UHGV virus genome: UHGV-0351052
Source of the DNA: a virus
Direction: 5' to 3' (one strand)
Length of the DNA: 64,000 bases
Shown: positions 2,368 to 63,959 of the stretch, in pieces
Position numbering within the stretch: the first letter of the stretch is position 1
Layout of the letters: each line of letters begins with the position of its first letter
Made by a program: the position numbers and the translations under genes
Notes under the pieces: generated by a model
Seen by the model: the letters and a program-made list of their open reading frames with translations, nothing else
The model's database searches: none
Told to the model about the DNA's origin: nothing

Positions 2368-3051
2368 TTATCGTTTTGTTGGAAGAGACAGAGGATCGCA
2401 TTCTTCCTCTGATGGAGCATCTTCGAGACCCATAGCATATCGCAAAGCATACTTCATCATCAGGATGTCTTTCGCACAGTCATGAATAGAATCATGTGCA
2501 ACGAATCCATCTAAAGTTCCCTTTGGAAGAGGACACGTGGTCATATCACGAACAAGCAGAAGTGCTTCAATTCTGGTACGAATATCACGCTGATTCCAGA
2601 ATTTACATGGTTCTAACTTAAATGTATCAAGCTCATTTTCGGAAACGCCGTTAAGACGTTGAATATCACGAATAAGATCGACTAAAATTGGAAAATCAAA
2701 CGACATTCCACGGCACCAGCCTTGAGATTTCCAAGGATCGATATTATGTGCATTGATGTAATCATTAAATTTTGCAATACCGTCAATAGTACTTACATCT
2801 TCATCGGATGGTGCAATATTTTTTCGAGCTTCAGGTGATTGATTTTTCCACCATTCAATAGTGCTTTTAGTAAAAAGACGATGTCCTTTTTGGCTTTTTA
2901 AATCAAATTTGATTTTAATGCCACGTGAAACTAATTCATCAAATGTTTCAACTACTTCTGGATTAGGGTCAAAGGCAATAACAGCCAAATCAATAACAGC
3001 TGCCTTTTCACCGCTTCCCATTGTTTCAAAATCTATAATAAAATCAAACAT
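2368..3051 (-). CDS. dexA: exonuclease A (DexA-like, DEDD 3-prime-5-prime exonuclease)
   Basis: 227 aa; N-terminal IIDFETMG exonuclease motif; directly downstream of dda as in T4. Confidence 0.75.
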   Translation of the reverse strand: MFDFIIDFETMGSGEKAAVIDLAVIAFDPNPEVVETFDELVSRGIKIKFDLKSQKGHRLFTKSTIEWWKNQSPEARKNIAPSDEDVSTIDGIAKFNDYINAHNIDPWKSQGWCRGMSFDFPILVDLIRDIQRLNGVSENELDTFKLEPCKFWNQRDIRTRIEALLLVRDMTTCPLPKGTLDGFVAHDSIHDCAKDILMMKYALRYAMGLEDAPSEEECDPLSLPTKR

Positions 3052-47279: not shown

Positions 47280-47761
47280 TTAGCCTTATATTCAATAACA
47301 GGACATACTTTAGCTTTACGAGCTTTTAAAAATTCGACGATAATAGATTTCTTGGGTTGAATAGGCTCAAGTCCATTTTTGATTCGTTCTTCGTTTTGTA
47401 CAATGAACTCAATTTCTTTATTGAGCTTTCGGTCGTTATATTTGTCTAACAACCAGGAAGGACCAATTACCGCCCCGACAGCAATAAGAACCATAACCGA
47501 TAATGCTAAAATGCCTATACCAATTGAAGCCGGAACTAATGTCCATAGACTACTAAAGACAAAGAATTTAATTAAAATTTCTTGGCCAATTATTGCGGCA
47601 CCTGCTAAAGTTGCAAATCCAACAATTGAAACAGCTAATACCGGGAGAAACGTTTTCCAAAAATAAGCACATAACGTTTTTGGACGATTCCATGTGCTAT
47701 TAAATGCCGAGTAAATTTTATAGTGCCAAGAGTTTTCATTAATAATCATAATTATAATCAT
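47276..47761 (-). CDS. membrane protein, 161 aa
   Basis: two long hydrophobic helices. Confidence 0.45.
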   Translation of the reverse strand: MIIIMIINENSWHYKIYSAFNSTWNRPKTLCAYFWKTFLPVLAVSIVGFATLAGAAIIGQEILIKFFVFSSLWTLVPASIGIGILALSVMVLIAVGAVIGPSWLLDKYNDRKLNKEIEFIVQNEERIKNGLEPIQPKKSIIVEFLKARKAKVCPVIEYKAK

Positions 47762-48279
47762 CCTTTCATTGAAGGTGTAACAGTTGTTAAATACTTAATC
47801 ATAGCTTCAGCTTCTGATTTTGATAATGAAATTTCTTCATTGTTTTGACGAATAGAAATAAAATCCGGATGACGGTCACCACCGGCTTTTAAAACACACA
47901 TATAAGTATCAGTTTCATCTTCAATATTTGAAATGATTGAAGCAGTTCCACACGAATGTGGTTTTTGATAAATCAATACAGCTTTTCTTCCACCGTTTGA
48001 CTGTTCATAAACTTTTAATACATCAAACAAATCACTTCTTTTATCAATAGCTAAAATGTTATTTTCATCTTCAATGTTAAATCCTTCGGATACTTCATAA
48101 AGTGTCACCCATAAATCACCTATATCGATAGTAGCATTTTCCTTTCCATGACTTTCAAGAGCATGACAAATTTTCTTAATTTCGTCATAACTCATTTTAA
48201 TAATATCATCTCCTTGAATAAGGAAGATGTCATTTTTAAATTCAACACGAATTAAACCGCTTCCACTTGAAATAAACAT
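47758..48279 (-). CDS. hypothetical protein, 173 aa
   Basis: ORF-track ORF; C-terminus resembles next ORF. Confidence 0.45.
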   Translation of the reverse strand: MFISSGSGLIRVEFKNDIFLIQGDDIIKMSYDEIKKICHALESHGKENATIDIGDLWVTLYEVSEGFNIEDENNILAIDKRSDLFDVLKVYEQSNGGRKAVLIYQKPHSCGTASIISNIEDETDTYMCVLKAGGDRHPDFISIRQNNEEISLSKSEAEAMIKYLTTVTPSMKG

Positions 48280-48285
48280 ATTTCC

Positions 48286-48840
48286 TCACTTTGAAATCAT
48301 AGTTGGAATGACAGAATCAAGATAAGTCTTTAACGCAATAGCTTCGTCTTTGGTAAATGTGACAATATGCGCTCGAAAATCATCAATTTGACGAATAGTT
48401 AAGACATCTCCATCTTCATAGCATTTTGACACATTTAAAATAGTTTCATCATTCTGATTACAGGAGTTAGTAATAATAGCATTGCAATTTTTAAGCCATT
48501 TTAAACTATGTTTTCTTTCATTAGAATAATAAAAATATTTAATCTTAGCTATAAAACTATCCCAATGGATAACTGATAAACACATTGACTCACTTTTAAT
48601 ATTAAATCCTGGGCATGAAGAATAAAAATGAATTTTGTGCTCATCATTGATGCTTACTATTTTATCAGTATAAGGATATTCAATTTGGGTTAAATGAATG
48701 ATTTCACTAGGCGTAAAATACAGCATATCGTCTTCTTGCGTCAAACGATACATATTATTTACTTTTTCTATAGCCAATTCACCAAAAAGTGGACTAACTT
48801 CTAATACTAATCGTTTCATATTAATCCTTTTTATTGGCAC
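48286..48840 (-). CDS. hypothetical protein, 184 aa
   Basis: ORF-track ORF; possible paralogue of previous (...AIALKTYLDSVIPTM versus ...AMIKYLTTVTPSM). Confidence 0.45.
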   Translation of the reverse strand: MPIKRINMKRLVLEVSPLFGELAIEKVNNMYRLTQEDDMLYFTPSEIIHLTQIEYPYTDKIVSINDEHKIHFYSSCPGFNIKSESMCLSVIHWDSFIAKIKYFYYSNERKHSLKWLKNCNAIITNSCNQNDETILNVSKCYEDGDVLTIRQIDDFRAHIVTFTKDEAIALKTYLDSVIPTMISK

Positions 48841-49099
48841 GAATTTGTTCTAAAATTTTAGAGTATTCCTTTGTATCAGATTTACGTACAATCGATACAC
48901 TATAAGGCATACTATCGGTGTCTTTTATAAAGCGTTCCAAATGACACTCTAACAAAATTTCTGGATTATAAATCGTGTACATCAAATTACCTGTTGCTCC
49001 ACGATATTGACAGATTTCTACTGATTGAGCATCATTCCACAATTTTGTTAAAACTAAATCACCTACTTCTAATTTAGGAAAGCCCATGTTATTCACCAA
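48821..49099 (-). CDS. hypothetical protein, 92 aa
   Basis: ORF-track ORF. Confidence 0.4.
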   Translation of the reverse strand: MVNNMGFPKLEVGDLVLTKLWNDAQSVEICQYRGATGNLMYTIYNPEILLECHLERFIKDTDSMPYSVSIVRKSDTKEYSKILEQIRANKKD

Positions 49100-49274
49100 T
49101 TAAAGTTTCAATATAAGAATCAAGATTTACTTTAGCTTCTTCCATAAGAGTTTTGTATTTAATCTTGTTAGCATGTCCGGAGAAAGCTGATTCATCAATA
49201 ACTGTTGCTGTATGAACAGCTTTACTATACGTCTCAATTAATTCTCTTAATTTAAAAGCCTGCTCACTTGTCAT
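49089..49274 (-). CDS. small helical protein, 61 aa (family member A)
   Basis: N-terminal SEQxxKLxELI and C-terminal DSYIETL; see paralogue finding. Confidence 0.4.
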   Translation of the reverse strand: MTSEQAFKLRELIETYSKAVHTATVIDESAFSGHANKIKYKTLMEEAKVNLDSYIETLIGE

Positions 49275-49378
49275 TACATACTCCTCTGAATCATATCAAT
49301 AATGTTGTTCACCAGATTATAAGTAAACATTGGGTAATTATATTGAATCATCACATACACAACAAACAAAACTTTCAT
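49274..49378 (-). CDS. small hydrophobic peptide, 34 aa
   Basis: AAGGAGA ribosome-binding site before ATG 49378; MKVLFVVYVMIQYNYPMF... Confidence 0.3.
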   Translation of the reverse strand: MKVLFVVYVMIQYNYPMFTYNLVNNIIDMIQRSM

Positions 49379-49406
49379 TCTCTTCTCCTTGGCAGTTGAC
49401 AAGATT

Positions 49407-49436
49407 ACTATACCATAACCTTGCCAACTTGTAAAC
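49407..49436 (-). promoter_or_regulatory. T4-type early promoter
   Basis: minus-strand GTTTAC 49436-49431, TGG+TATAGT 49415-49407. Confidence 0.45.
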
Positions 49437-49438
49437 CG

Positions 49439-49612
49439 TTAAATGTTGTTTTCAATAAAATTCTGAAGCTTTGTGTGAGCATCAACCATGATTTTCATTT
49501 CTTCTTTGGCGAAAGCTGTACCTCTTTCCCGAGCAGAATACTCATAGTCAGAAACTGCATTAGCATATTCTTCAATTAGCTTCATTAAAAACATCTGCTT
49601 TTCAGTTTTCAT
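49439..49612 (-). CDS. small helical protein, 57 aa (family member B; below ORF-track cutoff)
   Basis: hand translation MKTEKQMFLMKLIEEYANAV...LQNFIENNI. Confidence 0.3.
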   Translation of the reverse strand: MKTEKQMFLMKLIEEYANAVSDYEYSARERGTAFAKEEMKIMVDAHTKLQNFIENNI

Positions 49613-49796
49613 TGTTCCACCTAATCATTTCAAGATATTGAACTAACTTAGCTTTAGATTTATCCAAATCCTTTTTAGCTGCTTCTATACCGTCGTATGA
49701 ATATCCTTCACAATGCTCAACTGCTAATTGGTATGAATCTATTTCAATATCACGTGCTAATTTAATGATTTTTTCAAACTGTTCACGTGTTAGCAT
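49602..49796 (-). CDS. small helical protein, 64 aa (family member C)
   Basis: MLTREQFEKIIKL...LVQYLEMI. Confidence 0.4.
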   Translation of the reverse strand: MLTREQFEKIIKLARDIEIDSYQLAVEHCEGYSYDGIEAAKKDLDKSKAKLVQYLEMIRWNNEN

Positions 49797-49798
49797 AA

Positions 49799-50038
49799 TT
49801 AAACTCTCGTATTATGATCGATAATTTCATCAAGAAACATATCTAACGCTTCTATAGCATTATCCACTTTAGTTTCAAAGTCTTTAATGCCTTTATTCGA
49901 AATACCCGATGAATACCAAGCAAAGTCAATCAGCTCTTCATCTGCTTTGCGAATTGAAGCCACTAATTCCTTAATTTTATCCGCTTGTTCGATACTAATC
50001 ATTATTCCACCACATATGAAAGAGAGAATATTGCACAC
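49799..50038 (-). CDS. small helical protein (family member D; probably 67 aa from internal ATG)
   Basis: [14 protein letters not shown]...ALDMFLDEI. Confidence 0.4.
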
Positions 50039-50190
50039 GCCATGTGAGTTGCAACTTCATCACACATATTATAACGTTTCTTAAGAAGTTCTACAAGTTC
50101 TTCACTAGTGACTTCATCCATGTCGACGAAAAAATCACCATTAATGATGACGTAGATATTTCCTTCTTGATTAAGTGCTTCAATTTTCAT
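50002..50190 (-). CDS. hypothetical acidic protein, about 62 aa
   Basis: AAAGAGGAGAA ribosome-binding site before ATG 50190; track start 50235 lies inside promoter. Confidence 0.35.
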
Positions 50191-50218
50191 GATGTTCTCC
50201 TCTTTATCCGATGGTTGT

Positions 50219-50248
50219 ATAGTACCACGGCTCAAACGGAAAGTAAAC
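50219..50248 (-). promoter_or_regulatory. T4-type early promoter cassette
   Basis: minus-strand GTTTAC 50248-50243, TGG+TACTAT 50227-50219. Confidence 0.5.
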
Positions 50249-50258
50249 CGGTAAAATG

Positions 50259-50281
50259 AAAAAAGTCTCCCGAAGGAGACT
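50259..50281 (-). terminator. intrinsic terminator
   Basis: minus-strand RNA GUCUCC-UUCG-GGAGAC followed by UUUUUU; 5 nt past stop of 50286..50672. Confidence 0.6.
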
Positions 50282-50285
50282 AATG

Positions 50286-50672
50286 TTATTCGAGGGAAAG
50301 AAGATACTTACTCTGGTAAAACATTCCAGTAATATCATCTATCGTGCTTTGGATGGCTGGAGGCATTTCTTTATAAATGCTGTTAGATTGGTCTAGTATG
50401 CGATCAATCATTTTAATTGTGTCGGTAGGAAGTTTACTGGCATCTGGAATTGAAGGTGTGTATTTTCTACCAGAATACCCCAAATATTGCTCACCAAATT
50501 TATCAATCAAATCTGGCAACTCGGAGAAAATAAAATCGTATGCTTTGTGTCTAGCATAACTTTTAGTTTCAAAATGTGCAGAATGAAAATAAGCTTGTGC
50601 AGCCATTAATAAACCTAAGTATTCATCTGCCTTTGAAGGTTTTCCACTTTGTGAAAAGTCGCTGAATTTCAT
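50286..50672 (-). CDS. hypothetical protein, 128 aa
   Basis: ORF-track ORF; immediately downstream of rI. Confidence 0.45.
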
Positions 50673-50962
50673 TCAGTCTCCAATTTAATATTCATAATTC
50701 TAGCGTATGATTGTGCCATCTCCGCGCCTCGTTCTATACATTCAAAATCAGAAGAGCACGGGTCATTTTTATAGGTCGTTCTCATAAAACTATAGAATTG
50801 TTCAGACGATTCTACGCTTTTATTTTCAAAAAGCATATAAACGTGTCTAATACCAGATTCCATAAATTTATCAAAATGAGGATCGACATTCGCTTCAATC
50901 GATGGAGATAAAGCAAACGCTAATCCTAGCATGGCAAATAGTGCCGTTGCTTTTAAGGCCAT
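50669..50962 (-). CDS. rI: lysis-inhibition regulator RI-like (signal-anchor protein)
   Basis: 97 aa; N-terminal hydrophobic anchor ALKATALFAMLGLAFALS; size and slot match T4 rI. Confidence 0.55.
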   Translation of the reverse strand: MALKATALFAMLGLAFALSPSIEANVDPHFDKFMESGIRHVYMLFENKSVESSEQFYSFMRTTYKNDPCSSDFECIERGAEMAQSYARIMNIKLETE

Positions 50963-50974
50963 AAAGGCCTCCTA

Positions 50975-51187
50975 TCATTTTTGCCCTGTATTTACTTTAT
51001 GCCGATGCACGGCCTTAACTTTATCAAGGTATTTTTCAAAATTTCGCAATCTAGTATAGTCTGCCGGAGATTGGTTGAGTGATACTTCTCGACGCAAAGC
51101 TGAAATGATATTTCCAACTTCCCTACGAATTTCATCTAATTGAAGCACAGTAAGATTGCGAAGTTGCTTTTCAGTTAATTGTAGCAT
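50975..51187 (-). CDS. small helical protein, 70 aa (possible family member)
   Basis: [14 protein letters not shown]...NFEKYLDKV. Confidence 0.4.
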
Positions 51188-51229
51188 ATATACCCCTTTA
51201 GTTAGATAAACCTATTTATAACTTTTGCA

Positions 51230-51811
51230 CTAACCGAGCTTTTTAGTTAATTCATTCCAATGTTTTCTACACAAAGAAACATAAATTTCATCACCAATAC
51301 AGATTTGATTACCTTCTTTAACGGGTGTTCCATCTTCCATTAATCGAGCTGTCATAATCGCTTTTTTACCACAATGACAAACTGCCTTTAGTTCAATAAG
51401 TTTATCTGCGATCGCCAAAAGTTCTTTAGAACCTTCAAACAATTTTCCAGCGAAATCAGTCCTTAATCCATAAGCCATAACAGGAACATTATATGTATCA
51501 ACAATTCGGCTCAATTGATGCACCTGTTCAGTTTTTAAAAACTGGGCTTCATCTACAAATACACAATGAATATCTTTTTGTGCTTCAGCCCATTTATAGA
51601 ACTCAAAAATATCCATATCATCTGTAATAATATTTGCTTCCTGCCTAATTCCAATGCGAGAAACGACTTCACAGACAGAATCGCGAGTATCAATAGCAGG
51701 CTTAAGAACTAATACACTCATTCCACGTTCTTTATAATTATGTGCAGCAGTCAAAAGAGAAGCAGATTTTCCAGCATTCATTGCTGCATAAGTAAAAATT
51801 AAACTCGCCAT
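51230..51811 (-). CDS. tk: thymidine kinase
   Basis: 193 aa; P-loop AMNAGKSASLL, Walker B VFVDEAQF, zinc-ribbon CxxC pairs. Confidence 0.9.
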   Translation of the reverse strand: MASLIFTYAAMNAGKSASLLTAAHNYKERGMSVLVLKPAIDTRDSVCEVVSRIGIRQEANIITDDMDIFEFYKWAEAQKDIHCVFVDEAQFLKTEQVHQLSRIVDTYNVPVMAYGLRTDFAGKLFEGSKELLAIADKLIELKAVCHCGKKAIMTARLMEDGTPVKEGNQICIGDEIYVSLCRKHWNELTKKLG

Positions 51812-51812
51812 C

Positions 51813-52001
51813 TTAGTCCTTAGTTAAATTTTCTAAATATGTTTTTAAATCATTTTCAGCTTTATCGATAGATTTTACTAATTCGTAATATGTTTCGGCA
51901 TCTCCATATTCAGAAGATATTTCAAAAGACAAATCCTTTTCTAAACTAATAATTTCACCAACTAAAAATAATATTTCGTTCTTTTGTTCGCGAGTAATCA
52001 T
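51813..52001 (-). CDS. small helical protein, 62 aa (family member E)
   Basis: MITREQKNEILFLV...LKTYLENL. Confidence 0.4.
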   Translation of the reverse strand: MITREQKNEILFLVGEIISLEKDLSFEISSEYGDAETYYELVKSIDKAENDLKTYLENLTKD

Positions 52002-52183
52002 AAGGAATTTATATAATCAATAAGTTCTTGTTCTTTATTATCGAATTCTTTAGAAAGTTCTTCGTACTCGTTTGCACTAAAAGGACCGCATTCATTACAA
52101 ACTTTTTCCAATTCACTATTTTTATCCATAACTTCGTGGATAAGAGAAAAGAGTCTGTCTTTTTGTTCTTTGCTTAGGCTCAT
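51998..52183 (-). CDS. small helical protein, 61 aa (family member F)
   Basis: MSLSKEQKDRLFSLI...LIDYINSL. Confidence 0.4.
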   Translation of the reverse strand: MSLSKEQKDRLFSLIHEVMDKNSELEKVCNECGPFSANEYEELSKEFDNKEQELIDYINSL

Positions 52184-52353
52184 ATATTAATTTCCAGAAG
52201 TTTTAAAATAATTCGCTTTTGCTTAAATATTTCCATAGTTAAATGATCAGTATCTTTTTGGCCAATTCCAATGGCAAAACCTTTATTAGCAGCGAGTTCA
52301 ATTAAATTATCAAGTTCACGTGACACTTCATATTGTAACTCAGAACTATTCAT
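52180..52353 (-). CDS. small hypothetical protein, 57 aa (below ORF-track cutoff)
   Basis: hand translation MNSSELQYEVSRELDNLIELAANKGF... Confidence 0.25.
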   Translation of the reverse strand: MNSSELQYEVSRELDNLIELAANKGFAIGIGQKDTDHLTMEIFKQKRIILKLLEINI

Positions 52354-52562: not shown

Positions 52563-52780
52563 GTCACCTTTAAGCAGTATTCTTCTACATGTTGTTTACG
52601 ACCTTTCTTATCAATAAAGGTATATTCAACGAATGTTCCAATGTAGTCTTTATCTACATCATGTGGACTATTAATTGGACATTTAGTACGGCAAATGCGT
52701 TCCCATTGACGAATAATTACTGCCTTATTCTTTGGGTCATATGGATGTGGATAATGTATATTCATAATAATGGTTCCCAA
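52553..52780 (-). CDS. hypothetical protein, 75 aa
   Basis: ORF-track ORF. Confidence 0.4.
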   Translation of the reverse strand: MGTIIMNIHYPHPYDPKNKAVIIRQWERICRTKCPINSPHDVDKDYIGTFVEYTFIDKKGRKQHVEEYCLKVTWL

Positions 52781-53229
52781 TCAACAATCACAATTTCTAA
52801 TTTAGAGGAATATGTATCTAAAATCCCCTCAATAATATCCCAGTTCCCTTTACCTATGCCTGCACCAATCCTAGGCATATAGATTGTAGGTTTAATCAGT
52901 TTATTTTCACCAAACTCATTTAATTCTAACATACAATTCATTAAAGCGGAATACTCAAAATTTGGCCCTGGTTGAAATTGAGTATAAAGATTGAAGCAGT
53001 AAGCTTTATGAGTCCTAAAGTATTTTTCATAGACTGAATAAGAACCAAGTTTAGTTACATCACCCCATTCAGTCTGTAATTTATCAGCTTCCAAAATTTT
53101 AGGGAAAGCTTTGGTTAATTGACCTGCGACTCCAGCTTTCATCGTATGAAAACAATTGCATCCATGCGCAATATTTTTACCTTCAGCGAAAAGGGCGACA
53201 ATATCGCCCTTGATATATTTTACAATCAT
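52762..53229 (-). CDS. macrodomain protein (TARG1/OARD1/DarG-like ADP-ribose hydrolase fold), 155 aa
   Basis: IKGDIV...IAHGCNCFHTMKAGVAGQ...YMPRIGAGIGKGNW aligns with TARG1-type KGDLF...LAHCIS.DC.MGAGIA...MPRIGCGLDRLQW. Confidence 0.55.
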   Translation of the reverse strand: MIVKYIKGDIVALFAEGKNIAHGCNCFHTMKAGVAGQLTKAFPKILEADKLQTEWGDVTKLGSYSVYEKYFRTHKAYCFNLYTQFQPGPNFEYSALMNCMLELNEFGENKLIKPTIYMPRIGAGIGKGNWDIIEGILDTYSSKLEIVIVDWEPLL

Positions 53230-54639: not shown

Positions 54640-54960
54640 TTATTCTTTAAATCTAATCAATTTATTCATAGACTTTGAAACTTCTGCACGAACCTCATGT
54701 AGATTTTTGAGCTGTTCAAGACGCTGCTCATAGTAAGCAATTTCATCTTCTTCGAGACAGTCCTGTGAATCTTCTTTAAGATAACGTGCATAGTCCTGGA
54801 AAGCATTACGAACTACTTCCTGGAAGTCATCAAGACTTTGAATTTTCTTAGGAGCAACAGATACACGACGAGGGGCAGTATAATACTCATAACCAAACCC
54901 TGCGCTTAATTGAGCCATTAGTATTTTTCCTCTGGTTGGAACACTGCGCGACAAGCCCAC
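54640..54960 (-). CDS. hypothetical protein, 106 aa
   Basis: ORF-track ORF. Confidence 0.4.
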
Positions 54961-55220
54961 ATACTGGCTTCTTTGAGTTTCGTTTTAGCAATAGCTAACT
55001 GATCGAGGCTTTCAGCATAATTCTTCGCGAGTTCAAAGTCTTCGCAATCATCCCACGCTTCCCAGAATTCATCGTATAAAGCATCAAAGATAAGTCCTAA
55101 ACGAACTTCAGCGTCTTTGATAGCATTCACTTTACCGATTTTCTCTTCAGTATGTGGTTTATAACCCTTAATATCTTCAATCATATTTGACTTCCTCACC
55201 AGTACATAAATCGTATTCAA
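54918..55220 (-). CDS. hypothetical helical protein, 88-100 aa (vs.4 slot)
   Basis: ORF-track ORF; position-only relation to T4 vs.4. Confidence 0.4.
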
Positions 55221-55398
55221 CTAAACGAATAGGTTCATGAATGCCATATCCCTGAACAGAAATTTCTGTCGTGGGATAAATTCCATCAATATCGCCCATA
55301 TTCCACGCTTCATTAAATTGCTGTTCGCCTGAATTACTAAACCATTCGGCGAAAGCATTTAGCACATCTTCAGAACCTTCAATAATTATCTTTGCCAT
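55177..55398 (-). CDS. hypothetical acidic protein, 73 aa
   Basis: ORF-track ORF. Confidence 0.35.
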   Translation of the reverse strand: MAKIIIEGSEDVLNAFAEWFSNSGEQQFNEAWNMGDIDGIYPTTEISVQGYGIHEPIRLVEYDLCTGEEVKYD

Positions 55399-55760
55399 TA
55401 CAAACTCTCGGTAAAGGTACGAGCGATAACGTCGCGCTGCTGTTCCGGAGTCAGAGAGTTAAAGCGAACTGCATAACCGGATACACGGATGGTCAGCTGC
55501 GGATATTTTTCCGGATGCTTAACTGCATCTTCCAGAGTTTCACGACGCAGAACGTTAACGTTCAGGTGTTGACCACCTTCAATTTTAACTGTAGGCTGTT
55601 GCTCAATTTCAATTTCACGGGCATGCAAACCGTAGAAAATTTCTGGGTCTACAAAAGAGTCCTCTTTAAAGGTTTTAGAGACAATAATTCGTGCTTGAAT
55701 ACCATCTTCAAAATAAATAGTACCTTTATGTGTGCCTTCAAGAATTTGATATGCTTTCAT
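55398..55760 (-). CDS. autonomous glycyl radical cofactor (GrcA/YfiD-like)
   Basis: C-terminal 60 aa match E. coli GrcA as recalled, including glycyl-radical motif RVSGYAV. Confidence 0.8.
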
Positions 55761-62673: not shown

Positions 62674-62750
<77 letters not shown>

Positions 62751-62753
62751 TAA

Positions 62754-63419
62754 TTAAAATTTCATTTTTCGACCTTTAAACCATCCTTCTGGAATTGGGT
62801 CAGTTTTCTTAATACGTTTAGAAACTTTTTCATCTAATGAATGAATCCACATCATACCAAATTGGGAATTCTTTTCGCCCTGTTGATGTTTATTTCTGGC
62901 GTGAGATTCTTTCATTTTATTAATAGTTTCAGGAGTATGGGTCTTACCCAAGAAAGATTTAGTATTTAAAAATTTCTCTCTATACTTAGGATTATCCCAA
63001 AGCTGTTTAAACCTTTCTGAACCCATTTTACGATATTTTTCTTTAAGGTCTGGGTCGTTCTCAAATCTGGTTTTAAAAGCGGCAGCTCCTTTTAAAGAAG
63101 CTTCTTTCTTTTTATCCAAATATTCTTTAGTGTTTAAATGGTCCCAACCACCTTCACCACCTAATTTCAAATTATAAACATCAGAGCGCTTTAAAAACTC
63201 TTCAGTCACAATATTCTTTTCTGACTCAAACATAGAGGTTTTATCGTCAAAGAACTCTAATATTTCTTTAGAAAAATTTTCTATACCATACTTATCTTGG
63301 GCTCTTTTTAATAATTTACCAGAACCCATATATCCATCATCTAAATTTTCGGTAGAATGAGCGCCTATATAGATTTTATTATTAATTTTATTTGTTATTT
63401 TATAAATGTAATGGAACAT
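62754..63419 (-). CDS. segB: GIY-YIG homing endonuclease (SegB-like) within tRNA cluster
   Basis: 221 aa; GIY-YIG motif HYIYKITNKINNKIYIGA; location between tRNA genes as in T4 segB. Confidence 0.8.
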   Translation of the reverse strand: MFHYIYKITNKINNKIYIGAHSTENLDDGYMGSGKLLKRAQDKYGIENFSKEILEFFDDKTSMFESEKNIVTEEFLKRSDVYNLKLGGEGGWDHLNTKEYLDKKKEASLKGAAAFKTRFENDPDLKEKYRKMGSERFKQLWDNPKYREKFLNTKSFLGKTHTPETINKMKESHARNKHQQGEKNSQFGMMWIHSLDEKVSKRIKKTDPIPEGWFKGRKMKF

Positions 63420-63461
63420 AAATATCTCCTATTTCTAAGAGTATTTATGTTCTCAAAATAT

Positions 63462-63533
63462 GGCCCTGGGTGGAATTGAACCACCATCTGGCGATTATGA
63501 GTCGCTTGCTTGAACCTTCCAGCTACAGGGCCT
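63462..63533 (-). tRNA. tRNA-Ile (anticodon CAU, lysidine-type) or tRNA-Met
   Basis: acceptor GGCCCTG/CAGGGCC, anticodon loop CTCATAA, T-arm GGTGG-TTCAATT-CCACC; no encoded CCA. Confidence 0.6.
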
Positions 63534-63539
63534 TGATAT

Positions 63540-63612
63540 GCTGATTGACGGAATCGAACCGCCGACGTCCTCATTACAAGTGAGGTGCTCTACCTACTGA
63601 GCTAAATCAGCG
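63540..63612 (-). tRNA. tRNA-Thr (anticodon UGU)
   Basis: acceptor GCTGATT/AATCAGC, D-arm GCTC-AGTAGGTA-GAGC, anticodon loop CTTGTAA. Confidence 0.7.
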
Positions 63613-63619
63613 AAATTAC

Positions 63620-63706
63620 GGAGGCGATAGGATTTGAACCTATGAGTCGCCGGAGCGACTGCCGGTTTTCAAGACCGGTGCATTAAACCACTCTGCCACG
63701 CCTCCA
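63620..63706 (-). tRNA. tRNA-Ser (anticodon UGA), long variable arm
   Basis: acceptor GGAGGCG/CGCCTCC, anticodon loop CTTGAAA, 87 nt with extra arm. Confidence 0.7.
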
Positions 63707-63708
63707 GT

Positions 63709-63782
63709 CTCCGTGGCAGGATTTGAACCTACGACATTCTGCTCCCAAAGCAGACGCTCTACCAAACTGAGCTACACGGAGT
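63709..63782 (-). tRNA. tRNA-Pro (anticodon UGG)
   Basis: acceptor CTCCGTG/CACGGAG, anticodon loop TTTGGGA, T-loop TTCAAAT. Confidence 0.7.
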
Positions 63783-63793
63783 AAATTAAATTT

Positions 63794-63867
<74 letters not shown>

Positions 63868-63872
63868 AATTT

Positions 63873-63959
63873 GGTACGAGAAGTGGGACTCGAACCCACA
63901 AGGAAATCATTCCGCAGCATTTTAAGTGCTGTGCCTTTACCAATTTGACCATTCTCGCG
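63873..63959 (-). tRNA. tRNA-Leu (anticodon UAA), long variable arm, CCA encoded
   Basis: acceptor GCGAGAA/TTCTCGT, anticodon loop CTTAAAA, T-arm GTGGG-TTCGAGT-CCCAC. Confidence 0.7.

What the first reader, a model, noticed from the sequence alone, without database searches (positions are those of the whole stretch)
49089..52183. Family of six or more paralogous small helical proteins in tandem
Six ORFs of 57-67 aa (49089..49274, 49439..49612, 49602..49796, 49799..50038, 51813..52001, 51998..52183) share an N-terminal (S/T)xEQxxK(I/L)xxL(I/V) and a C-terminal LxxY(L/I)E(x)L pattern; 50975..51187 may be a seventh. They look like diversified copies of one small helical module, the kind of architecture expected for variable binders of host targets.
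Basis: seen in the sequence. Interest (0 to 1): 0.4.

Follow-up and report, generated by a model that had tools for sequence, protein, structure and literature searches.

The report
T4-type DUF7438 helical-hairpin gene family
Six small early genes around the thymidine kinase gene of this T4-like phage are real, anciently duplicated copies of one 60-residue two-helix hairpin protein; databases already list the family as DUF7438, and its function is still unknown.

Summary
The window is a Tequatrovirus (97.7% identical to wV7/RB14/T6). The six ORFs are tk.2, tk.1, mobD.4, mobD.3, mobD.2a and an RB14ncORF101c-type gene. All six match Pfam PF24219 (DUF7438) at 1e-15 to 1e-18. In leave-one-out profile searches of all 718 window ORFs, each left-out member was the best non-training hit. 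AlphaFold2 predicts the same antiparallel two-helix hairpin for the strongest and the weakest member (pLDDT 91.5 and 94.8).

The proposed seventh member, rI.1, is not a member, and the window holds no others.

The copies share no DNA similarity, and each has orthologues in other genera, so the duplications are old. Five of six are under purifying selection (dN/dS 0.05-0.18). Copy number runs from 1 in unrelated phages, through 2-4 in other T4-like phages and contigs, to 4-6 in Tequatrovirus. In T4 the RNAs are early and four of the proteins are detected. The nrdC.11-mobD.3 segment can be deleted.

Every family-wide conserved residue is structural (helix caps, a/d core, loop Gly), and the proteins are acidic. 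They are therefore most likely diversified protein-binding modules for host takeover or counter-defence. No target is known, and this part is inference. The family is already known and uncharacterised; interest is modest.

The parts
51998..52183 (-). tk.2 orthologue, 61 aa, DUF7438 member
   Evidence: Pfam PF24219 at 67.4 bits, E 1.4e-18. Named tk.2 in RB14. AlphaFold2 hairpin H5-30/H37-60, pLDDT 91.5. Its stop overlaps the tk.1 start (ATGA).
51813..52001 (-). tk.1 orthologue, 62 aa, DUF7438 member, immediately upstream of tk (one base between its stop and the tk ATG)
   Evidence: Pfam PF24219 at 55.6 bits, E 7.1e-15. Gene name; sequence. In T4 the RNA is early and the protein is detected (supplement of PMC9697503).
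   Evidence: Pfam PF24219 at 59.4 bits, E 4.4e-16. RB14 annotation. The hairpin tip (residues about 24-45) is the variable part among orthologues, with 60-, 63- and 67-aa length variants.
49602..49796 (-). mobD.3 orthologue, 64 aa, DUF7438 member
   Evidence: Pfam PF24219 at 64.1 bits, E 1.5e-17. dN/dS 0.05 within Tequatrovirus. In T4 both RNA and protein are early.
49439..49612 (-). mobD.2a orthologue, 57 aa, DUF7438 member; overlaps mobD.3 by 11 nt
   Evidence: Pfam PF24219 at 59 bits, E 5.8e-16. AlphaFold2 hairpin H4-29/H32-56, pLDDT 94.8. Frameshifted into two fragments in T4 itself.
49089..49274 (-). RB14ncORF101c-type gene, 61 aa, DUF7438 member; absent from T4 and from many other Tequatroviruses
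   Evidence: Pfam PF24219 at 58.2 bits, E 1e-15. phrog_4859, which is mislabelled 'helicase loader'. Presence and absence among relatives.
50219..50247 (-). Early-promoter-like site (TTTACT-17 nt-TACTAT) upstream of mobD.5, heading the mobD.5-mobD.4-mobD.3-mobD.2a cluster
   Evidence: Read from the sequence. It falls below the scan tool's 9-of-12 threshold. In T4 a mobD.5 promoter gives a transcript 3 min after infection that RegB does not cleave (PMC1702504).
49407..49435 (-). Promoter-like site (TTTACA-17 nt-TATAGT with an upstream TG) ahead of mobD.2 and the ncORF101c-type gene
   Evidence: Consensus scan, 10 of 12 matches. Consensus match only.
50264..50281 (-). Terminator-like hairpin after rI.-1, separating the tk/rI unit from the mobD.5 unit
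   Evidence: AGTCTCCTTCGGGAGACT followed by TTTTTT.

Best explanation
Shown. The six genes are anciently duplicated members of one phage protein family, Pfam DUF7438. Each protein is about 60 residues, acidic, and folds as an antiparallel two-helix hairpin. The genes sit in two tightly packed, translationally coupled early clusters: tk.2-tk.1-tk, and mobD.5-mobD.4-mobD.3-mobD.2a followed by mobD.2 and the ncORF101c-type gene. In T4 they are transcribed early and four of the proteins are detected. At least part of the set can be deleted in the laboratory. Five of the six are nevertheless kept under purifying selection. Copy number and alleles differ between close relatives.

Inferred. The residues conserved across the whole family only build the scaffold:
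- a hydrophobic staple plus capping box (I-T-x-E-Q) at the start of helix 1
- a narrow a/d core with Ala at the centre
- a Gly-Ser/Thr turn
- an L..Y/F-I/L..L/I closure at the C-terminus

The exposed positions and the hairpin tip differ between paralogues. I therefore think each copy acts stoichiometrically as a small binding module with its own partner. The partner is most likely a host protein or a host defence component, met in the first minutes of infection. The set would then be an accessory host-takeover or counter-defence toolkit whose composition tracks the hosts a lineage has met.
For: - Family membership and more-than-chance similarity.
- Fold.
- Only structural residues are conserved; a/d pattern.
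- Acidic: net charge -2 to -8 for the six copies here, -1 to -11 for 35 of 36 family members, pI about 4-6.
- No DNA-level repeats between copies, and each paralogue has orthologues of 44-64% identity among metagenomic and related-phage proteins; P896 (Gaprivervirus) carries tk.2-, tk.1- and mobD.3-type copies. The duplication is therefore old.
- dN/dS 0.05-0.18 for five genes.
- Copy number: 6 here and in RB14/wV7; 4 intact plus 1 frameshifted in T4; 4-5 in HY01/RB5/ECp13; 3 in P896; 2 in S16 and the Proteus phage; 2 plus 1 weak hit in Ursula; 2-4 in metagenomic T4-like contigs; 1 in unrelated phage contigs.
- A tk.2 allele of 56% identity sits in otherwise 93-94% identical genomes, and tk.2/tk.1 chimeras exist.
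- Expression in T4: mobD.3 and mobD.4 have early RNA and early protein; tk.1 and tk.2 have early RNA and middle protein (supplement of PMC9697503). The mobD.5 promoter is active at 3 min (PMC1702504).
- Dispensable: the nrdC.11-mobD.3 deletion is viable (PMC9825161).
- Neighbourhood: an Acb2 homologue at 54918-55184 (PF24729, 1.2e-20). T4 nrdC.5 (anti-Dsr1) and ipIII, accessory genes of the same genome, counter host defences (PMC9391042).
Against: - No partner, phenotype or interaction is known for any member. Literature searches found nothing on their function.
- A conserved scaffold with variable surfaces is what any small helical protein looks like, so the binding-module inference is weak.
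- Within Tequatrovirus the orthologues are strongly conserved (dN/dS about 0.1). That is not the signature of an ongoing arms race at the residue level; the variation is by gene and allele presence instead.
- The pair upstream of tk is conserved across genera, which could equally point to a phage-internal role.
Confidence: 0.4

Rival explanations
1. The hairpins work on the phage's own machinery. For example, they could be small adaptor or regulatory subunits for nucleotide-metabolism enzymes, the function of several neighbours (tk, the nrd genes).
For: - A DUF7438 gene or pair lies upstream of tk, directly adjacent in most cases, in every T4-like locus examined that includes tk, across several genera. 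Here tk.1 is translationally coupled to tk.
- In unrelated short contigs a single member lies next to a Thy1-type gene (weak Pfam hit; L005) or an AAA_33 kinase (L006/L007), within about 2-3 kb of a nucleoside deoxyribosyltransferase gene (L003) and of a dCMP deaminase gene (L020).
Against: - Synteny within Straboviridae is inherited, so it is not independent evidence.
- Phage early regions are full of nucleotide-metabolism genes, so chance adjacency is likely.
- Other members sit next to a lysozyme gene or among unrelated small ORFs.
- tk.1 is missing in RB5, ECp13 and HY01 although tk is intact.
- The mobD-cluster copies are not next to such enzymes.
Confidence: 0.2
2. The hairpins assemble into oligomers that sequester a small molecule. 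This would resemble Acb2 and Tad1, whose helical hairpins form sponges for immune signalling nucleotides.
For: - A true Acb2 hairpin protein is encoded 2.7 kb upstream in the same transcription direction.
- DUF7438 is likewise a short helical hairpin expressed early.
Against: - No Pfam PF24729 hit for any of the six at E up to 1.
- hhalign of the family profile against the window's Acb2 gives probability 0.7%.
- No conserved polar or aromatic surface residues that could line a common pocket.
- The strongly acidic charge is unfavourable for binding anionic nucleotides.
Confidence: 0.08
3. They are Rop-like: two hairpins pair into a four-helix bundle that binds structured RNA or DNA and regulates phage or host gene expression.
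For: - Size and a/d core pattern are similar.
- Rop is also acidic (from my own knowledge).
Against:
- No conserved basic or polar face; net charge reaches -11.
Confidence: 0.06
4. The resemblance is a chance product of short, AT-rich, helix-prone ORFs, or the ORFs are not real genes.
For: Individual pairwise similarities can be weak: the mobD.2a/mobD.4 z-score is 0.9, and identities are 20-31%.
Against: - Pfam scores are more than twice the cutoff.
- Leave-one-out recovery among 718 ORFs.
- Purifying selection.
- Proteins detected by mass spectrometry in T4.
- Family members with the same length and motifs occur in unrelated phages.
Confidence: 0.01

Closest known systems
Pfam PF24219 (DUF7438); PHROGs 653, 2758 and 4859. 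Includes T4 Tk.1 (P13306), Tk.2 (P13307), MobD.3 (P39238), MobD.4 (P39237) and MobD.2a
   Same: The six proteins are orthologues of these T4-type proteins and score 55-67 bits against the family model over its full length.
   Different: Nothing differs in kind. This phage carries six intact copies; T4 has four intact copies and one frameshifted one and lacks the ncORF101c-type gene. The family has no assigned function.
Acb2/Tad1 hairpin sponges (Pfam PF24729; T4 vs.4)
   Same: A short helical-hairpin protein, expressed early, in the same accessory arm of the genome. The window's own Acb2 homologue is at 54918-55184.
   Different: No sequence or profile relationship. DUF7438 is shorter (about 60 aa against 88 aa), more acidic, and lacks conserved candidate ligand-binding residues. 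Its oligomeric state is unknown.
Rop (ColE1 repressor of primer)
   Different: No detectable homology. The fold match is generic. Dimerisation and RNA binding were not shown for DUF7438.
Small T4 early counter-defence and host-takeover proteins (TifA, Dmd, NrdC.5, IPIII)
   Same: Small, early, non-essential accessory genes, variable between T-even phages, in the same type of genome region (PMC9391042).
   Different: Those have known targets (ToxN, RnlA, Dsr1). No target or phenotype is known for any DUF7438 member, and there is no sequence relationship.

Membership tests
Pfam PF24219 DUF7438 | Whole-protein HMM score above the curated gathering cutoff (25 bits), covering the 57-position model end to end | tested here: met
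   All six score 55.6-67.4 bits and cover model positions 1-56/57.
Pfam PF24219 DUF7438 | A protein of about 57-67 aa that folds as one antiparallel two-helix hairpin | tested here: met
   AlphaFold2: tk.2 H5-30/H37-60 (pLDDT 91.5) and mobD.2a H4-29/H32-56 (pLDDT 94.8). The other four were aligned but not modelled.
Pfam PF24219 DUF7438 | The candidate seventh copy, rI.1 (50975-51187), reaches family-level similarity | tested here: not met
   No Pfam hit; HMM E 3.2; hhalign probability 2.4%. Genes at the same position in related contigs carry PF26904.
Acb2/Tad1 hairpin (PF24729) | Match to the family HMM, or profile similarity to a bona fide Acb2 | tested here: not met
   No hit at E up to 1. 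hhalign against the window's Acb2 gives probability 0.7%.
Acb2/Tad1 hairpin (PF24729) | An oligomer that forms pockets binding cyclic nucleotides | not testable with these tools
Rop | Sequence or profile homology to Rop | tested here: not met
Rop | Helical-hairpin fold | tested here: inconclusive
Rop | Homodimeric four-helix bundle that binds RNA loop-loop complexes | not testable with these tools
   Monomer models only.
Replicative helicase loader (label carried by phrog_4859 and by RefSeq records for the 49089-49274 orthologue) | Similarity to a known helicase-loader family, or linkage to a helicase gene | tested here: not met
   Apart from DUF7438 the only Pfam hit at E up to 1 is an unrelated weak one, Toast-rack_PspC-Cterm at E 0.031. 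Its neighbours here are mobD.2 and a tudor-domain gene. The label looks like an annotation artefact.
Molybdopterin-guanine dinucleotide biosynthesis protein MobD (RefSeq label on several orthologues) | Similarity to Mob proteins | tested here: not met
   Only DUF7438 hits and no NCBIfam hit. The label follows from the T4 gene name mobD (a homing endonuclease).

The most novel reading that the evidence does not exclude
DUF7438 could be a modular anti-immunity scaffold. On this reading each paralogue has evolved to neutralise a different host defence or host factor. The two ancestral copies next to tk expanded to six in Tequatrovirus, and copies are exchanged, fused and lost as host immune repertoires change. 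That would make it a multi-copy counter-defence family in the best-studied lytic phage.
Probability: 0.2. Interest if true: 0.65.

Novelty: already known. Interest (0 to 1): 0.27.

Why it matters
About half of T4's genes still lack a function (my own knowledge). This family accounts for four to six of them per genome and is made as protein early in infection. A confirmed paralogue set with a confident fold, known expression timing and natural presence/absence variation is a compact target for anti-defence or host-takeover screens. As it stands the finding adds no new kind of element: the family is already curated as a DUF, and these genes are near-identical to ones annotated in hundreds of phage genomes.

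Tried and rejected
- **Solved structures by sequence:** a PDB search with the family profile found nothing below E 0.38.
- **Other protein libraries:** NCBIfam gave no hits.
- **Candidate extra members and relatives:** hhalign of the family profile against rI.1, the 52180 ORF, Rop and the window's Acb2 was negative in every case.
- **Related loci:** The search for related loci with the family alignment failed because no stretch was conserved enough.
- **Second protein search:** a word-indexed search with the wider alignment added little.
- **Literature:**
  - Searches for mobD.2a, mobD.3, mobD.4, tk.1, tk.2 and DUF7438 found no functional study.
  - The supplements of the CRISPRi-ART preprint and of a 2026 PNAS paper did not mention these genes.
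- **DNA repeats:** none between the paralogues, so recent duplication is rejected.
- **Database labels:** 'helicase loader' and 'MobD molybdopterin...' are rejected as artefacts.
Full report
**Identity of the window**

The 3.6 kb around the finding is 97.7% identical to Escherichia phage wV7, 97.6% to RB14 and T6, and similar to hundreds of other Tequatrovirus genomes. All genes in the region are on the minus strand. Using the T4-style names in the RB14 record, the six ORFs are:

| Gene | Coordinates | Length |
|---|---|---|
| tk.2 | 51998-52183 | 61 aa |
| tk.1 | 51813-52001 | 62 aa |
| mobD.4 | 49799-50002 | 67 aa |
| mobD.3 | 49602-49796 | 64 aa |
| mobD.2a | 49439-49612 | 57 aa |
| RB14ncORF101c type | 49089-49274 | 61 aa |

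The annotated start is the ATG at 50002, whose A is the last base of the mobD.5 stop codon.

**Is the similarity real?**

Yes.
- Each of the six matches Pfam PF24219 (DUF7438) end to end at 55.6-67.4 bits, against a gathering cutoff of 25. They fall in PHROGs 653, 2758 and 4859, which cross-hit one another.
- Pfam's seed probably contains their orthologues, so I also ran leave-one-out profiles built only from the other five window proteins. These were searched against all 718 stop-to-stop ORFs of the window. The left-out protein was always the first non-training hit (E 5e-7 to 0.013), and the best unrelated ORF had E of 0.24 or worse.
- Global pairwise scores against 300 shuffles give z from 0.9 to 6.8. 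All six are connected by edges above 4.5.
- A 36-sequence family profile finds exactly these six in the 64 kb window.

The suggested seventh copy, rI.1, fails every test. Genes at its position in related contigs carry a different Pfam family, PF26904. The 57-aa ORF at 52180-52353 is also unrelated.

**Structure**

AlphaFold2 with shallow family alignments predicts one antiparallel helical hairpin for tk.2 (helices 5-30 and 37-60, pLDDT 91.5). It predicts the same for the weakest sequence-level member, mobD.2a (helices 4-29 and 32-56, pLDDT 94.8).

Column statistics over 36 family members show that everything conserved is structural:
- I-T-x-E-Q at the N-terminus, which reads as a hydrophobic staple plus capping box for helix 1. 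This reading is my inference from standard helix-capping rules.
- An a/d heptad stripe, with Ala (or Ser in helix 2) at the two central d positions.
- Gly followed by Ser/Thr in the turn.
- L..(Y/F)(I/L)..(L/I) near the C-terminus.

No polar surface position is conserved family-wide. The proteins are acidic: net charge is -2 to -8 for the six here and -1 to -11 for 35 of the 36 members, with pI mostly 4-5.3.

The fold itself is uninformative:
- Foldseek against viral models returns only uncharacterised phage proteins.
- No solved structure matches by sequence.

**Distribution and evolution**

A full HMMER scan of 1.84 billion cluster representatives finds only 44 clusters at E of 0.001 or better. 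Nearly all are 59-65 aa with the same MITxEQ...YLExIT frame.

Copy number in the syntenic vs-to-nrdC region, counted with the family profile:

| Phage or contig | Copies |
|---|---|
| This window, RB14, wV7 | 6 |
| T4 | 4 intact, plus mobD.2a split by a frameshift; no ncORF101c-type gene |
| RB5, ECp13 | 5 |
| HY01 | 4 |
| P896 (Gaprivervirus) | 3 |
| S16 and a Proteus phage (Gelderlandvirus) | 2 |
| Citrobacter phage Ursula | 2 plus a weak third |
| Two metagenomic T4-like contigs | 2 and 4 |
| Unrelated phage contigs (one 45 kb with PolA and an Sf6-type terminase) | 1 |

- The copy or pair upstream of tk (directly adjacent in most loci) is the part shared across genera.
- There are no DNA-level repeats between the copies.
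- Each paralogue has its own orthologues at 44-64% identity among metagenomic and related-phage proteins, and P896 (Gaprivervirus) carries tk.2-, tk.1- and mobD.3-type copies. The duplications are therefore old.
- Within Tequatrovirus, pooled Nei-Gojobori estimates give dN/dS of 0.05-0.18 for five genes. tk.1 has too few differences to judge (0 synonymous, 9 non-synonymous over non-independent pairs).
- Variation is mostly by gene and allele content:
  - RB5, ECp13 and HY01 lack tk.1 and carry a tk.2 allele only 56% identical to the one here, in genomes otherwise 92-94% identical.
  - tk.2/tk.1 chimeras occur in the databases (P0014, P0087).
  - mobD.4 orthologues differ mainly at the hairpin tip, with 60-, 63- and 67-residue forms.

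**Expression and dispensability (from the literature on T4)**

- A mobD.5 promoter gives a transcript 3 min after infection that RegB does not cleave (PMC1702504). The matching site here is TTTACT-17-TACTAT at 50247-50219. It follows a terminator-like hairpin at 50281-50264.
- A second, stronger promoter-like site lies at 49435-49407, ahead of mobD.2 and the ncORF101c-type gene.
- In time-resolved omics of T4, mobD.3 and mobD.4 are classed early at both RNA and protein level. tk.1 and tk.2 are classed early for RNA and middle for protein. mobD.2a has early RNA with no protein class, which fits its frameshift in T4 (supplement of PMC9697503).
- A T4 mutant lacking nrdC.11 through mobD.3 is viable (PMC9825161).
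- I found no paper on the function of any member.

**What it most likely does**

The shown facts are a scaffold-only conservation pattern, acidic charge, early synthesis, laboratory dispensability with purifying selection, and lineage-specific copy and allele content. The genes also lie in an arm that encodes a true Acb2 sponge (54918-55184, PF24729 at 1.2e-20). In T4 the accessory genes nrdC.5 and ipIII act against host defences (PMC9391042).

My best reading is that each copy is a small stoichiometric binding module with its own partner, probably a host or host-defence protein. I put this at about 0.4; it is an inference with no direct test.

The rivals are:
- a phage-internal role tied to nucleotide-metabolism enzymes (0.2), supported only by adjacency to tk and a few similar contexts
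- an Acb2-like oligomeric sponge (0.08), disfavoured by the lack of homology, the lack of conserved pocket residues and the negative charge
- a Rop-like nucleic-acid binder (0.06)
- chance or non-genes (0.01), refuted

**Comparison with what is known, and novelty**

These proteins are members of DUF7438 by the family's own criterion. Pfam and PHROGs already group the T4 genes tk.1, tk.2, mobD.2a, mobD.3 and mobD.4. The finding is therefore correct but already known as an uncharacterised family. Its only added value is the comparative picture and the pointer to a testable anti-defence hypothesis.

Two database labels on orthologues are artefacts: 'helicase loader' (from phrog_4859) and 'molybdopterin-guanine dinucleotide biosynthesis protein MobD' (a gene-name collision).

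**Limits**

- The structure models are monomers from alignments of 16-26 sequences; the oligomeric state is unknown.
- The dN/dS values pool non-independent pairs from seven genomes.
- Promoter and terminator calls are consensus matches, apart from the T4 mobD.5 promoter taken from the literature.

Noticed in passing
window 54918-55184 (-): An 88-aa ORF matches Pfam PF24729 (Acb2/Tad1 hairpin domain) at 1.2e-20. It corresponds to the T4 vs.4 anti-CBASS sponge and lies 2.7 kb upstream of tk.2 in the same orientation.
   Followed up: partly
window 47758-48279 (-) and 48286-48840 (-): A second tandem paralogue pair. Both proteins (173 and 184 aa) carry T4_y05I_N plus T4_y05I_C domains ('putative transcription factor', mobD.1-like). 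In this phage, as in RB14, they occupy the place of the T4 mobD homing endonuclease gene.
   Followed up: partly
L014 (ECp13), L015 (HY01), L016 (RB5), between tk and the RB32ORF110c-type gene: These Tequatroviruses have a single gene where the window has tk.2 plus tk.1. It is a divergent tk.2 allele, 56% identical in protein (dS about 1.2), in genomes otherwise 92-94% identical. This suggests allele replacement by recombination.
   Followed up: partly
proteins P0014 and P0087: Natural chimeras that join the N-terminal helix of tk.2 to the C-terminal helix of tk.1. One is 64 aa; the other is a 50-aa deletion fusion. This suggests recombination between the adjacent paralogues.
   Followed up: no
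L008 (T4 AF158101.6) 2497-2678 (-): T4's own mobD.2a is split by a frameshift into two fragments that together cover the family model. The annotated 38-aa MobD.2a is a truncated pseudogene product. No protein class is recorded for it in the T4 omics data.
   Followed up: yes
RefSeq records of relatives (e.g. NC_019505.1, NC_042129.1, NC_027349.1): Several product names look like systematic artefacts. 'Helicase loader' is applied to the 61-aa ncORF101c-type protein. 'Molybdopterin-guanine dinucleotide biosynthesis protein MobD' is applied to mobD.x genes. 'Starvation-inducible transcriptional regulator' is applied to rI.-1, which hits only DUF5856 here.
   Followed up: partly
window 51813-52001 (tk.1), compared with RB14, T4 and wV7: All differences between tk.1 orthologues are non-synonymous (0 synonymous, 9 non-synonymous over pooled pairs). 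The other five paralogues have dN/dS of 0.05-0.18. The sample is too small to interpret.
   Followed up: no
protein P0122 (936 aa, metagenomic): The C-terminal half is 14 or more tandem repeats of about 23 residues (LSSEQRxxLTELLHxIESxSETx). These repeats resemble the N-terminal helix of DUF7438 and produce a profile hit at 2e-8. This is probably convergent low-complexity similarity.
   Followed up: no
window 55398-55760 (-): A 120-aa ORF whose C-terminal part matches the glycine radical domain (PF01228, 2.5e-18). It looks like a stand-alone glycyl-radical 'spare part' protein in the vs region.
   Followed up: no
window 62674-63958 (-): A cluster of seven tRNA genes (Arg-tct, Met-cat, Thr-tgt, Ser-tga, Pro-tgg, Gly-tcc, Leu-taa), the T4-type tRNA region at the end of the window.
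   Followed up: no
window 52762-53229 (-) and 48821-49099 (-): The tk.4 orthologue carries a Macro domain (E 1.9e-5). The gene just downstream of the ncORF101c-type gene is a 'Phage tudor' domain protein (PF24144, 4.8e-40). Both have unknown roles in this accessory arm.
   Followed up: no
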